This document shows positions 36,001 to 39,000 of a stretch of 64,000 nucleotides of DNA, piece after piece. Each line of letters begins with the position of its first letter. Position 1 is the stretch's first letter. Source of the stretch: Phallusia mammillata (Eukaryota); NCBI GenBank assembly GCA_965637545.1, contig OZ281498.1, positions 18,600,001-18,664,000 on the forward strand, given 5' to 3'. The position numbers are program-made.

Positions 36001-39000
36001 TTTTTAGGATCTATAACCCTAAAAGACAAATTTGAGATAACAGCTTCACGTCATTTCCCATATCATCAGTAAGTGCATACGCTCACTGGATTTTTGCTTC
36101 AGGCCGCCACGTAATAACACGCCTGCTCAGGCGCAACATGCAATTGTGCTGCGCCTATCATACCGTCCGATAATTGCCCCGGAAGCCAAAAGAAACTAGT
36201 AGATTTGACAACACCGCCTCGCTAAATTAAACCTGTAGTCACAATAATGCCTAGAAGAAGAAGGACGAATCAGAAATCGTCAGTATTTATGATACAGTTT
36301 AGAAGTCAGTAATAAACTGAACAGGACCTGGACTTAACACGGTTGCGAAACAATACCAACTGTTACGTAACCGGATTCATTTTATCCCAACGCAGACTAA
36401 ACAAGAACCGCAGTTTTGCCAGGTTGCAGTAGCGGTGTAATGTTGCGTGCAAACAATGTTTAGCGTCTGAATTTCAGTTCGTTTCATGAACATATTTTGT
36501 GTGCACAACATATCTGTGTCATAATAGCTGTGTTAGTTTCTTCAAATCAGCTCCTAAATTGCCGAAAAAAAACTTGTTTGAAACCACCGGTTGCAGTTTG
36601 TTTTATGATGTAACAACCAGCCTGGGCCTCAACAATTCTAACCTTGATTTGCGCGGCAAACTTAGGTGAGTACGTAGAAAGAACAGGGGAAATGAATTTT
36701 TTGCTCCTAGATGTTTATTCATGCTCCATGGAGCGTGTTGTGTCGACTATATGTGGTGTGGATATATTGTGCCGCACCACAGCGAAATTGGCCTTGCTGC
36801 TGTGGCTGGTGAATTTTGGAAGGCGGTTTTTCACACTTCAGGTTTTTGTGCACCTGTCAATGCTTGGTTAGGGCTGGTTGTTTTTCACACTGAATGCACC
36901 TGGAAATAAGACACTTAAGTGCCATAGGTGTTTTAGAAACCAAAGACAAGCTTCAGGAGTATATGTTGTGCTGGATATATCTTTACATATGAGTTCTGTT
37001 TATATATCACCCAGACTTCTGTTTGCAGATGTTTTAGTGTATTTTTATTTTGTGGTTGTGTAATGTTTGAACCGAAAAATAAGGGAGGGTAGCTATATTT
37101 TTCCCGGCGTTTAGAAAGGGCAGTGTTTCGATGAAGGGGCCACCGTCGATATTGTATTTAGCCCTACTTGTGGACCTCATCTGTGCAGTTTCACATGTTG
37201 TAGCTGCAATAAACAATGACCGACAAGCTTTTCGTGCTACCCAGCACCGCCAAGACCAAAGCCTTGCCGACAATCAACCAATTGGTCGCACTGCAACAAC
37301 CCGTTTTCGTACAAAACTGGTCGCGGTTAAAGATGCACTTACGAACAATGACCAACTTCGCCGTGGGGCTCATCGGCGGCAAAGGGTGCGTTGCATCACC
37401 GCCGATTGCGGAAGAATTCGTCGGGCTGGCGTCGAAAGCTTGGATAGGGATTACGAAAGCGAGAAGACCTATCAATCTCATAAGACGGACGGACCGGACA
37501 GCTGGTCAAGTTGGGAGGCGTGGAGTACCTGGAAGAAATGGGCTGAGACCCTATCCCCTGCAACGGTTGGGACCCTACCTGTAACAACTACAACTAGGCC
37601 AACAGAGGGGCCACCAGAGGTGCGTTTATTGCGTTTTTAAATTTTGTTCTAGAGGTTTGCCAATTCTATGGTTTGCTAGTAAATGACACAATCATACCAA
37701 CTATTGAATTCGTAAACACTACTATATTTGTTAACCGTGTTTTAGGGGACGAAGCATATGGTTCGAAATGGGTATAGGCCAGGGGTCGCTAACCTTTACG
37801 ACTCAAAGAGCCACTCGGACCAGTTTCACGTAGTAAAAAAACACTGGGAGCCACAAAGTCGTTTCAAAATTTAAAATAAAATGCAAAACGTTTTTAGTCT
37901 TATGACATTCGACATTTTGTTGTTAGCTAGTGTTTCAATGCATATTAGACACACTGGTATACTAGTCTCGTCAGCAGAGAAAACAACTTTACATAGCGTT
38001 GCATATTCTGTTTTTGCAGATTTGTATTCCTTTGTTAACGCGTTTGTTACGTAACAATTAACAAACAGCTATTGTTACGCGCGCACACACTGCAAACAAA
38101 AACAGTATTGTCTCATTTTGCGTATTAACCTGCGCGCCGCCAGTTTGCCTCTTTCAGACTTCACGTACGTTGATGGCATAGAGTTAGGGTTGCAGGTAAC
38201 TGCAACAAGCGAGTACAGTCATGCTACTGCACTTCAATTTTCGTGTTCGACTTTTGTGTTCGGCATAATCGTCACATAATTTTTATTCAAATGTACAACA
38301 TTTGGTAAATTCAAAAACTGAGCCGCATCAGAGGGATCAAAGAGCCGCACTACTGTACAATCAATGTAGGCGGTTTAAAAGGGAATAGATTGAATTTGCT
38401 GTGCTTGTGCTTGGCGGTGATGGCGTTTCCTTAGGGAAATTACCACAGCGCAGCTATAGGTAATTGGCGAAAATATGCTCATTTTGCGGTCGCTAAACTT
38501 CATATCGTGGTTGGTCGCGTATGCATTCAATTTGTGCTGCAACAAAACGCAGGGAACCAAGAACAAGAATTTGAATTTGGTTTACTTCGGCAGTTGGTGA
38601 ATTCAATTTTTACGACGAGTCAGTCTTATTCATTAAATCAGTCGTATTCATTAACTGCTGTATGCATGTGAAAATTAAAAATATTATTAAAGAAAATACG
38701 CACTGCAACTCCTATGCAACTCGCAGTTTGTTTAAATAAACCACCTCAACCAATACCTTTGTTTTGTCAGCTAAAAGCCCATGAGACAGCCTATGATCAC
38801 TTTATTACGGCATTCTTGTTGGTCGAATTTTGATTTGTATTGAATGCTTTTTTCATTCATGTTTTGCATCAAGAATGTCATTTTAAAACATAGACTTATA
38901 TTCAATTTAGTTGGAGGAATGCGCTTCGCAGCCTAATCGCAAAGGCTCAGCGTATTTAGCGCACTGTTTGTATAAGGGATAAGTCTGTGGCTAAGAAGAG

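What the first reader, a model, noticed from the sequence alone, without database searches (positions are those of the whole stretch)
37131..37619. Fibrillar collagen with an unrecognised N-propeptide: furin site, five-Trp WxxW ladder, Thr-rich stalk
Seen: signal peptide, an Arg-rich segment with CITADC and RIRR (aa 95-98), then WSSWEAWSTWKKW (W125-W137, 37503-37541) and TVGTLPVTTTTRPT. Established: chordate fibrillar N-propeptides usually carry vWFC (clade A) or TSPN (clades B/C). WxxW is the DPY19 C-mannosylation motif, typically up to three Trp in thrombospondin repeats, and RxRR is a furin site. Inference: a novel propeptide with up to four C-mannosylation sites, left at the N-terminus after furin cleavage, outside any TSR fold.
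Basis: partly seen in the sequence, partly recalled or inferred. Interest (0 to 1): 0.65.

Follow-up and report, generated by a model that had tools for sequence, protein, structure and literature searches.

The report
Sea-squirt collagen gene, orphan first exon
The first coding exon of a sea-squirt fibrillar-type collagen gene encodes a signal peptide and 137 residues with no detectable relatives, including five evenly spaced tryptophans. It looks like a lineage-specific version of the already variable collagen N-propeptide, and its function is untested.

Summary
Downstream, 19 AG/GT-bounded phase-0 exons (30, 36, 105, 72, then 54/45/99/108 nt) encode a 14-triplet minor helix, a short break and 109 triplets of major helix. 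That is the fibrillar-collagen gene layout. A neighbouring homeobox gene places the window in a tunicate, not human.

Exon 1 has no Pfam family, no solved-structure relative and no homologue in three protein searches. Intron 1 hides no VWC-like exon or phase-0 cassette exon.

The Trp ladder is far beyond chance. The furin motif is not, given the Arg content. Only two of the four formal C-mannosylation sequons have the small +1 residue. One base further on, the ladder reads as five Gly-X-Y triplets, a possible frameshift origin that is only weakly supported.

No transcript or orthologue data were available and structure prediction never returned. The exon 1-collagen link, conservation and modification remain inferred. 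Verdict: a new variant of a known kind, of moderate interest.

The parts
37131..37619 (+). Exon 1 of the collagen gene model: 489 nt, 163 codons, phase-0 donor.
   Evidence: ATG, open frame and gtgcgt donor. GC is 0.53 against 0.40-0.41 in the flanks. The donor scores 7.2 bits on a matrix built from the gene's 19 other donors (their range 4.6-12.2), the 99th percentile of 673 GTs in intron 1. It has the best codon-usage score of the six frames.
37131..37208 (+). Signal-peptide-like N-terminus, aa 1-26. Cleavage after Ala26 is inferred.
   Evidence: Hydrophobic core at aa 10-20, KD(11) = 2.79. Small residues at -3/-1 fit a recalled rule of thumb. No dedicated predictor was available.
37209..37424 (+). 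Basic Arg-rich segment, aa 27-98. It holds the Cys pair (aa 88 and 93, 37392-37409), an R-x-R-x-R run (aa 83-87) and the single R-x-[K/R]-R motif (aa 95-98, 37413-37424).
   Evidence: 17 R+K against 6 D+E, 2 Cys. One canonical and one minimal furin-type motif; the motif is not beyond chance.
37386..37387 (+). Possible alternative phase-0 donor after codon 85, with the same GGTGCGT context as the donor at 37620.
   Evidence: 5.2 bits, the 95.7th percentile of intron-1 GTs. Use of this donor is untested.
37425..37502 (+). Acidic linker, aa 99-124.
   Evidence: 7 D+E against 3 R+K in 26 residues.
37503..37541 (+). Five-Trp ladder, period 3, aa 125-137. Read from 37504 it gives five Gly-X-Y triplets (37504-37548).
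   Evidence: significance; composition of the +1 frame; no match to real exons, no 9-nt tandem array.
37542..37619 (+). Thr/Pro-rich tail, aa 138-163.
   Evidence: 9 S+T and 5 P in 26 residues. A 12-nt unit occurs twice at 37597-37620.
37620..48294 (+). Intron 1, 10,675 nt. The gene's other introns in the window are 60-2,450 nt.
   Evidence: No Cys-rich, Gly-X-Y or phase-0 cassette exon was found.
48295..48324 (+). Exon 2, 30 nt: seven non-collagen residues, then the first triplet of the minor helix.
   Evidence: The acceptor scores 14.6 bits, but it was part of the training set.
48730..48765 (+). Exon 3, 36 nt: four triplets of the minor helix.
48971..49075 (+). Exon 4, 105 nt: nine triplets that end the minor helix, then 8 non-helical residues.
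   Evidence: Pfam Collagen PF01391, E = 3e-4.
50534..50605 (+). Exon 5, 72 nt, the junction exon: 6 non-helical residues, then the first six triplets of the major helix.
50755..63600 (+). Fourteen further major-helix exons of 54, 108, 54, 54, 45, 54, 45, 54, 45, 54, 45, 99, 54, 108, 54 nt. The gene runs past the end of the window.
   Evidence: All are AG/GT-bounded, start with a Gly codon and end with a whole Y codon.

Best explanation
37131-37619 is the first coding exon of a tunicate fibrillar-type procollagen gene whose 5' end is laid out like a clade-A gene without the VWC exon.

The exon encodes, in order:
- a signal peptide;
- a 137-residue, probably largely disordered, lineage-specific non-collagenous head for the N-propeptide, made of a basic Arg-rich part with one Cys pair, an acidic linker, a five-Trp period-3 ladder and a Thr/Pro-rich linker.

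It splices in phase 0 to three small exons for a 14-triplet minor helix and to a junction exon that opens the major helix.

Inferred mechanism. Like other fibrillar N-propeptides, this head sits at the N-terminal end of the molecule. It is either shed or, as in type V/XI collagen, partly kept on the fibril surface, where its bulk would limit lateral fibril growth. The Thr/Pro stretch is a likely O-glycosylated spacer. W125 and W131 are plausible C-mannosylation sites. The R-x-R-R site may be cut by a furin-type convertase, which would release the basic part.

Shown here: the sequence features, the exon layout, and the absence of known domains and of detectable relatives. Inferred: the splice link, secretion, disorder, all processing and all modification.
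For: Collagen layout:
- 19 AG/GT phase-0 exons lie downstream, with the 54/45/99/108-nt pattern, each beginning with an intact Gly codon. This is the rule quoted in PMC2852846 (passages).
- The minor helix, short break and junction exon are present.
- I scanned 5 of the 19 exons in Pfam, and all 5 hit Collagen; 2 scored above the curated cut-off.

Exon 1 as a real coding exon:
- GC is 0.53 against about 0.40 in the flanks.
- It has the best codon score of six frames: +10.8 bits against -8.3 and -15.0 on the + strand, and +8.8 against -1.5 (+1 ORF) and -10.4 (antisense ORF) in the shared interval.
- The donor scores within the gene's own range.

Link to the collagen:
- Between the end of the upstream gene (27005) and exon 2, the scan for ATG + hydrophobic core + phase-0 donor gave 3 candidates. 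Two are exon 1 itself; the third is a weak 27-codon piece at 36728.
- Intron 1 has 0 open phase-0 AG..GT pairs of 27-400 nt among 35 acceptors and 40 donors above threshold.
- No run of 3 or more Gly-X-Y triplets lies in it.
- At most 7 Cys occur in any 70-residue stretch of its 186 stop-free segments, whereas a VWC exon carries 10 Cys (PMC2148200 passages).

Orphan status:
- No Pfam family: the best match has E = 8.4.
- 0 of 1,835,955,588 representatives at E <= 0.001.
- 0 of 630 word-sharing longer proteins even at E <= 10.
- Solved structures: only tropomyosin at E = 0.39 for the whole exon, and nothing for aa 77-163.

Other support:
- The charge-hydropathy measure puts aa 27-163 and both halves on the disordered side.
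- Precedents: variable N-propeptides, chains without VWC, and partial processing of pro-alpha1(V) that leaves the variable region and minor helix on the fibril.
Against: - No transcript shows the 37619-to-48295 junction.
- The open frame also ends on its own, 7 codons into the intron, so a separate small gene is possible.
- No orthologue was found, so nothing shows that the Trp ladder, Cys pair or R-x-R-R site are under selection.
- The C-propeptide, the defining fibrillar domain, lies beyond the window.
- 2 of 123 triplets lack Gly. PMC2852846 (passage) describes one Ciona chain related to clade C with many such defects, so the clade is unassigned.
- The non-helical break has no Gln. The vertebrate N-proteinase site has Gln at P1' (PMC12362006 passages). 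It also has no Lys, so vertebrate-style processing and cross-linking cannot be assumed.
- The furin motif is expected by chance in 27-48% of shuffles.
- Structure prediction never returned, so disorder rests on a crude composition measure.
Confidence: 0.55

Rival explanations
1. Origin hypothesis, compatible with the gene model above. The Trp ladder is collagen-triplet DNA read one base out of frame: TGG every 9 nt is GGN in the +1 frame. On this view it is a by-product of a frameshift in an ancestral collagenous stretch of the N-propeptide and need have no function as a Trp motif.
For: - 37504-37548 reads as five Gly-X-Y triplets.
- Their X/Y residues are collagen-like for this gene: log-odds +3.6 bits against a mean of -8.66 for random W-x-x ladders built from exon-1 codons. 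About 1.1% of 20,000 random ladders scored as high.
- The only other ladder of 3 or more Trp in the six-frame translation of the window is the antisense of a real Gly-Pro-Pro exon. Collagen DNA does make Trp ladders off-frame.
Against: - The G ladder follows automatically from the W ladder, so only the X/Y composition is independent evidence, and it rests on 10 residues.
- The ladder has no significant nucleotide match to any real exon: the best is 28 of 45, and 210 of 2,000 shuffles did as well.
- A frameshifted run is all-Trp only if each preceding codon ends in T. Only 23 of 123 real Y codons do, about 2e-4 for five in a row by my arithmetic. Trp would therefore have had to be selected afterwards.
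- The periodicity does not continue on either side.
Confidence: 0.15
2. Exon 1 is not part of the collagen gene. It is a separate small gene for a 169-residue secreted protein, or the first exon of another transcript, and the true signal-peptide exon of the collagen was missed.
For: - The frame closes 7 codons past the donor, giving a complete 169-codon ORF.
- The intron is 10,675 nt, four times the next longest.
- The sea-urchin 1-alpha gene is a precedent for surprises in a long first intron (PMC2852846 passage).
Against: - No other signal-peptide exon candidate lies in 37641-48294.
- No open phase-0 AG..GT pair lies there either.
- The donor is strong and in the phase that exon 2 needs.
- AATAAA is at chance frequency in the window: 161 observed against 147 expected. 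The first one on the + strand after the stop is at 37875, so it says nothing either way.
Confidence: 0.12
3. The ladder is the remnant or core of a thrombospondin-repeat-like Trp-Arg ladder. The upstream R-x-R-x-R run and the Cys pair would pack against the Trp residues in a small cation-pi stacked fold. R-x-R-R would then be structural and not a cleavage site.
For: - The exon holds both TSR hallmark motifs: W-x-x-W-x-x-W and an R-x-R-x-R run next to a Cys. The motif definitions come from PMC2173040 passages.
- VWC and TSPN, the usual collagen N-propeptide modules, are both shared with thrombospondin (PMC2148200 passage).
Against: - The order is reversed: Arg before Trp.
- Only 2 of the 6 Cys are present.
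- No Pfam TSP_1 match at E <= 10 and no solved-structure match.
- The Arg run is unremarkable in a segment that is 21% Arg.
- The composition measure suggests disorder.
Confidence: 0.05
4. The open frame is a chance ORF in a GC-rich island and not an exon at all.
For: - Two other long ORFs overlap it, one of 122 aa in the +1 frame and one of 96 aa antisense, so the island is poor in stops in several frames.
- No homologue exists in any search.
Against: - At 185 stop-free codons it is the second longest stop-free segment without a longer overlapping one in the 64-kb window. The longest is the homeobox first exon.
- ATG, a hydrophobic start, a strong phase-0 donor and the best codon score of six frames coincide.
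- The collagen needs a signal-peptide exon, and no other candidate exists.
Confidence: 0.05

Closest known systems
Clade-A fibrillar chains without the VWC module: vertebrate pro-alpha2(I), type IIB procollagen (COL2A1 minus exon 2), the short form of sea-urchin 1-alpha
   Same: A signal-peptide exon is followed directly by small exons for a minor triple helix and by a junction exon into a major helix coded by 54/45/99/108-nt exons. No Cys-rich module is present (PMC2852846 passages; PMC2148200). From recall, and not from any call, the sizes 30/36/105/72 nt resemble the COL1A1 exon 3-6 sizes.
   Different: In those chains the N-propeptide is little more than the minor helix. Here 137 non-collagenous residues with no known relative precede it.
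N-terminal variable region of pro-alpha1(V)/(XI) collagen, clade B
   Same: A non-collagenous, low-complexity stretch lies ahead of a minor helix. In type V it stays on the mature chain after partial processing and is thought to regulate fibril diameter (PMC3096658 passage; PMC2852846 passage). This is the best model for how the present region would work.
   Different: No TSPN domain and no sequence similarity. In type V the cut is made by BMP-1, and furin acts on the C-propeptide. The exon layout here is not that of clade B.
Thrombospondin type 1 repeat (TSR) and other C-mannosylated WxxW proteins
   Same: Trp residues at period 3 in a secreted protein. WxxW is the sequon of the DPY19 C-mannosyltransferases, which act on unfolded chains (PMC10154233; PMC12990085).
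   Different: Five Trp, against at most three in the fullest TSR form the review describes. No following Cys, 2 Cys instead of 6, and no profile or structure match. It is not a TSR.
Lineage-specific N-propeptide modules: sea-urchin SURF repeats, cnidarian WAP/VWA
   Same: Precedents that fibrillar collagens of single lineages carry N-propeptide parts outside the four vertebrate configurations (PMC2852846 passage).
   Different: Those are repeated, Cys-rich folded modules. This is a single-copy, Cys-poor, probably disordered stretch.

Membership tests
Fibrillar collagen | Triple-helix exons of 54 bp or 45/99/108 bp, each starting with an intact Gly codon and ending with an intact Y codon | tested here: met
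   15 of 15 exons from 50534 on, counting the helical part of the 72-nt junction exon, fit the pattern. The rule is from PMC2852846 passages.
Fibrillar collagen | Long, essentially uninterrupted major triple helix of about 1,000 residues | tested here: inconclusive
   Only 109 triplets lie inside the window. 2 of the 123 triplets in all, both in the major helix, have Ser or Ala in place of Gly.
Fibrillar collagen | C-propeptide (COLFI domain) | not testable with these tools
   The gene runs off the window at 64000. No eukaryotic genome collection was available.
Fibrillar collagen, clades A/B | Minor triple helix and a short non-helical break ahead of the major helix | tested here: met
   14 triplets over exons 2-4, then 8 + 6 non-helical residues at the exon 4/5 junction.
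Fibrillar collagen, usual N-propeptide | VWC or TSPN module | tested here: not met
   No Pfam match in exon 1. I scanned 5 of the 82 intron-1 segments of at least 35 aa and none had a family. At most 7 Cys occur per 70 aa in 186 segments. No phase-0 cassette exon was found. This feature is not strictly defining, since pro-alpha2(I) lacks it.
Thrombospondin type 1 repeat | W-x-x-W-x-x-W strand | tested here: met
   Five Trp at period 3.
Thrombospondin type 1 repeat | R-x-R-x-R strand after the Trp strand, and six conserved Cys forming three disulfides | tested here: not met
   The Arg run lies 38 residues before the ladder. There are 2 Cys, both upstream. The definition is from PMC2173040 passages.
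Thrombospondin type 1 repeat | Profile or sequence match (Pfam TSP_1, solved TSR structures) | tested here: not met
   nothing at E <= 10.
C-mannosylation substrates | Entry into the ER, plus a W-x-x-W sequon with a small residue at +1 and no Cys at -2 | tested here: inconclusive
   The signal-peptide-like start rests on features only. There are four formal sequons. The +1 residue is Ser at W125 and W131, but Glu at W128 and Lys at W134. No sequon has Cys at -2 (rules).
C-mannosylation substrates | Mannose on Trp, and a DPY19 enzyme in the species | not testable with these tools
   No proteomic data and no access to the rest of the genome. The search for DPY19 + Ciona gave 2 papers, neither informative judged from the listing alone.
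Furin-type convertase substrates | R-X-K/R-R motif in a secreted protein (consensus recalled) | tested here: met
   One motif, at aa 95-98. It arises in 27-48% of composition-matched shuffles, so it carries little weight.
Furin-type convertase substrates | Actual cleavage | not testable with these tools
   This needs the N-termini of the native protein.

The most novel reading that the evidence does not exclude
A tunicate fibrillar collagen has replaced the growth-factor-binding VWC module with a new, unfolded head. Its five-Trp ladder was born by reading collagen Gly-X-Y DNA one base out of frame and was then kept by selection. It would serve as a multiply C-mannosylated, TSR-independent WxxW array that is exposed after convertase cleavage and binds ligands such as TGF-beta-family factors or glycosaminoglycans on the fibril surface.
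Probability: 0.08. Interest if true: 0.7.

Novelty: new variant of a known kind. Interest (0 to 1): 0.36.

Why it matters
The N-propeptide is the part of a fibrillar collagen that tunes fibril diameter. In type IIA procollagen it also binds BMP-2 and TGF-beta1 (PMC2148200).

A chordate collagen with a wholly unrelated head would show how freely this part can be swapped. If the ladder is mannosylated, it would be a natural WxxW array outside any TSR or cytokine-receptor fold. If the frameshift origin holds, it would be a tidy case of a new motif arising from repeat DNA read in another frame.

None of this is shown yet. As it stands, the finding is one unconserved-looking orphan exon in a fast-evolving lineage.

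Tried and rejected
Searches for relatives of exon 1, all empty:
- phmmer against 1.84 billion representatives.
- Word-indexed search of longer proteins at E <= 0.01 and again at E <= 10.
- Pfam.
- Solved structures, whole exon and aa 77-163.

These blanks are weak evidence. E-values are scaled to billions of sequences. The neighbouring homeobox gene's first exon is only 28-32% identical to its Ciona and Clavelina counterparts, so an orthologous propeptide could sit below threshold.

Collagen exons could not be searched in the large protein sets. The longest exon is 36 aa and the tool's minimum is 40. I did not pad or join them, so no orthologous collagen chain was retrieved.

Looked for and not found:
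- Hidden exons in intron 1: 82 stop-free segments of at least 35 aa, none Cys-rich. GC islands are modest.
- A second copy of exon 1, or repeats touching 36000-49200.
- A 9-nt tandem array at the ladder.
- A nucleotide match of the ladder to real collagen exons.
- Any Rfam family or tRNA in the window.
- Any Pfam family in the overlapping +1 and antisense ORFs.

Other points:
- Poly(A) signals were uninformative.
- Literature: the string WxxWxxWxxW occurs in 1 paper, in a TSR context. Of 26 papers holding both C-mannosylation and procollagen, none of the 12 listed concerns a mannosylated collagen propeptide, judging by title and abstract start.
- Structure prediction gave no result at any point, and so there was no fold search.
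Full report
**1. The observation**

Window 37131-37619 (+) begins with ATG, runs 163 codons without a stop and is followed at 37620 by gtgcgt.
- a hydrophobic start;
- an Arg-rich stretch with CITADC (aa 88-93) and RIRR (aa 95-98);
- five Trp at aa 125, 128, 131, 134 and 137 (37503-37541);
- a Thr/Pro-rich tail.

The window has no N. The ladder is not chance. These are the only five Trp of the exon, and the probability that a shuffle places them in one period-3 ladder is 1.7e-7. 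A ladder of 3 or more Trp arose in 586 of 200,000 shuffles. It is not a recent 9-nt tandem repeat.

The furin-type motif carries little statistical weight. At least one R-x-[K/R]-R arose in 13,489 of 50,000 shuffles of aa 27-163 and in 23,827 of 50,000 shuffles of aa 27-98.

**2. The gene downstream**

A scan for 5 or more Gly-X-Y triplets gave 17 runs in the window:
- 15 on the + strand between 48971 and 63600;
- one antisense to one of those;
- one at 37504-37548, discussed in section 7.

Refined boundaries give 19 exons after exon 1, all AG/GT-bounded and in phase 0:
- 30, 36 and 105 nt, coding a 14-triplet minor helix and then 8 non-helical residues;
- 72 nt, coding 6 non-helical residues and then the start of the major helix;
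- then 54, 108, 54, 54, 45, 54, 45, 54, 45, 54, 45, 99, 54, 108, 54 nt.

Each helix exon starts with an intact Gly codon and ends with an intact Y codon. That is the hallmark of fibrillar collagen genes (PMC2852846, passages read). I scanned 5 of the 19 exons one by one in Pfam. All 5 hit Collagen, 2 above the curated cut-off.

Limits of the classification:
- The window ends inside the helix, 109 major-helix triplets in, so the C-propeptide cannot be seen.
- Two triplets have Ser or Ala in place of Gly.
- The clade is therefore unassigned. A minor helix with a junction exon is the clade-A/B style. From recall only, the sizes 30/36/105/72 nt resemble COL1A1 exons 3-6.

The joined protein was neither built nor searched.

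**3. The organism**

Upstream on the same strand lies a paired-type homeobox gene (22560-27002). Its 43-residue homeodomain exon found 845 proteins at E <= 0.001 among 1,090 candidates.
- The best named hits are from the ascidians Clavelina lepadiformis and Ciona intestinalis, each 98% identical. Many of the named hits below them are called paired mesoderm homeobox.
- Both proteins map to six collinear pieces of the window. Identity is 28-32% in the first exon and 64-98% in the pieces from the homeodomain onward.
- The two species belong to different ascidian orders.

I take the window for a tunicate other than these two species. I do not take it for human. I did not try to identify the record.

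**4. Is exon 1 the collagen's first exon?**

For:
- GC is 0.53 against about 0.40 in the flanks.
- Its frame has the best codon-usage score of six frames, using 375 homeobox codons as the reference.
- Its donor scores 7.2 bits on a matrix built from the gene's 19 other donors (their range 4.6-12.2). That is the 99th percentile of 673 GTs in intron 1.
- It ends in the phase that exon 2 needs.
- A scan of 27005-48294 for ATG + hydrophobic core + phase-0 donor found only exon 1, with two donors (37386 and 37620), and a weak 27-codon piece at 36728.

The 10,675-nt intron is the obvious hiding place for missed modules. The sea-urchin 1-alpha gene, whose first intron of about 22.8 kb holds VWC and SURF exons, is a precedent (PMC2852846 passage). 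I found none here:
- 82 stop-free + strand segments of at least 35 aa, none Cys-rich.
- At most 7 Cys per 70 residues among 186 segments of at least 20 aa. A VWC exon has 10 Cys in 69 residues (PMC2148200 passages).
- I sent 5 of the 82 segments to Pfam and none had a family.
- No run of 3 or more Gly-X-Y triplets.
- 0 open phase-0 AG..GT pairs of 27-400 nt among 35 acceptors and 40 donors above threshold.

Exon pairs in other phases are not excluded.

Against:
- No transcript data exist here.
- The frame closes 7 codons into the intron, so a stand-alone 169-codon gene remains possible.

**5. What exon 1 encodes**

Four segments follow the signal-like start:

| Residues | Character |
|---|---|
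| 27-98 | net charge about +11, both Cys, an R-x-R-x-R run and the R-x-R-R motif |
| 99-124 | acidic |
| 125-137 | the Trp ladder |
| 138-163 | 9 Ser+Thr and 5 Pro |

A charge-hydropathy measure places the whole region and both halves on the disordered side.

No relative was found:
- Pfam best E = 8.4.
- 0 of 1.84 billion representatives at E <= 0.001.
- 0 of 630 word-sharing longer proteins at E <= 10.
- Solved structures gave only tropomyosin at E = 0.39 for the whole exon and nothing for aa 77-163.

These blanks are weak evidence against conservation. Tunicate non-domain sequence diverges fast, as the homeobox first exon shows, and E-values are scaled to billions of sequences. Structure prediction did not return.

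**6. Likely working**

By position the region is the non-collagenous head of the N-propeptide. The closest working model is type V collagen. There BMP-1 removes TSPN, while the variable region and minor helix stay on the chain and are thought to limit fibril diameter (PMC3096658 passage; PMC2852846 passage).

Here a convertase cut at aa 98/99 would leave the acidic linker, ladder, Thr/Pro stretch and minor helix. That is inference only.

Processing sites:
- The vertebrate N-proteinase site has a small residue followed by Gln between the minor and major helix (PMC12362006 passages). The break here has no Gln.
- It also has no Lys, the usual cross-link residue of N-telopeptides (PMC5120351 passages).

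C-mannosylation:
- The transferase acts on unfolded chains at W-x-x-W/C. It prefers a small residue at +1, tolerates anything at +2 and is hindered by Cys at -2 (PMC12990085 passages; PMC10154233 passages).
- W125 and W131 (+1 Ser) fit well. W128 (+1 Glu) and W134 (+1 Lys) fit poorly. W137 has no +3 partner.
- Non-TSR substrates are already known.

A WxxW motif in thrombospondin-1 is reported to bind mature TGF-beta (PMC8155481 passage), and the VWC of type IIA procollagen binds BMP-2 and TGF-beta1 (PMC2148200). A ligand-binding role that stands in for VWC is therefore conceivable but untested.

**7. An unexpected reading of the ladder**

TGG recurs every 9 nt, so the same DNA read from 37504 gives five Gly-X-Y triplets. 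That follows automatically. What is not automatic is that the X/Y residues look like this gene's real triplets. The log-odds is +3.6 bits against a mean of -8.66 for random W-x-x ladders, and about 1.1% of 20,000 random ladders scored as high. The window's only other off-frame Trp ladder is the antisense of a true Gly-Pro-Pro exon.

Against a simple frameshift origin:
- No nucleotide match to any real exon: the best is 28 of 45, and 210 of 2,000 shuffles were as good.
- Only 23 of 123 real Y codons end in T, which an all-Trp outcome needs five times running.
- The periodicity does not extend on either side.

The +1 frame itself cannot be the expressed one. It has no signal peptide, stops at 37582 and is out of phase with exon 2. 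I keep this as a weakly supported idea about origin.

**8. Comparison and verdict**

The thing is a fibrillar-type collagen gene with a lineage-specific N-propeptide head.
- It is not a TSR. The Trp motif is met, but the Arg strand order, six Cys and profile match are not met (definition from PMC2173040 passages).
- N-propeptides are called the most variable part of these proteins (PMC5120351 passage).
- Lineage-specific modules such as SURF and WAP, and chains without VWC, are established.

I rate it a new variant of a known kind, interest 0.36.

**9. What stayed unchecked**
- Transcripts.
- Orthologous tunicate loci.
- The C-propeptide.
- Any structure model.
- Presence of DPY19 in this genome.
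- Figures and supplements of the cited papers, which were not held or were closed. Figure 1C of PMC2852846 and the telopeptide alignments of PMC5120351 may state the N-propeptide type of the Ciona chains.

Noticed in passing
window 22560-27002 (+): A paired-type (Prrx-like) homeobox gene in at least six coding pieces. The homeodomain is split after position 46. Pfam Homeodomain E = 1.5e-13 for the 43-aa exon. The best named relatives are Clavelina lepadiformis and Ciona intestinalis 'homeobox protein 10'. I could not make the phases of the first two pieces fit, so an exon boundary there is unresolved.
   Followed up: partly
window 11060-15840 (+): A Rab/Ras-family small GTPase gene in several exons. 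The P-loop is near 11060, DTAGQE near 15118, GNKxD near 15619 and ETSAK near 15776. Pfam Ras E = 7.8e-5 for the last piece.
   Followed up: partly
window 37386 (+): A second phase-0 GT inside exon 1 with the same GGTGCGT context as the donor at 37620 (5.2 bits, 95.7th percentile). If used, it would give a short isoform that lacks the Cys pair, R-x-R-R, the Trp ladder and the Thr tail.
   Followed up: partly
window 54182-54235 and 62308-62361 (+): Two major-helix exons each carry one triplet with Ser or Ala in place of Gly. Such imperfections are unusual for clade-A/B chains but are reported for one Ciona chain (PMC2852846 passage).
   Followed up: no
window 49052-49075 and 50534-50551 (+): The non-helical break between the minor and major helix has neither Lys (the usual cross-link residue) nor Gln (the usual N-proteinase P1' residue).
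   Followed up: partly
window 62694-62756 (-): The antisense of the Gly-Pro-Pro-rich exon reads as Gly-X-Y and, in another frame, as a short Trp ladder. Collagen DNA mimics both motifs off-frame.
   Followed up: yes
window 37194-37481 (-) and 37216-37584 (+, +1 frame): Two further long ORFs overlap exon 1. The antisense one also starts with a hydrophobic stretch. Both score worse on codon usage than the exon-1 frame, and neither has a Pfam family.
   Followed up: yes
window 28767-29060: The most GC-rich island between the homeobox and collagen genes, peaking at 0.64. It holds only a 40-codon ATG ORF by my reading of the sequence. Its nature is unknown.
   Followed up: no
window 37437-37460 (+), aa 103-110: A Tyr flanked by acidic residues in the acidic linker resembles a tyrosine-sulfation context. 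The rule is recalled and was not tested. The variable regions of type V/XI collagens come to mind.
   Followed up: no
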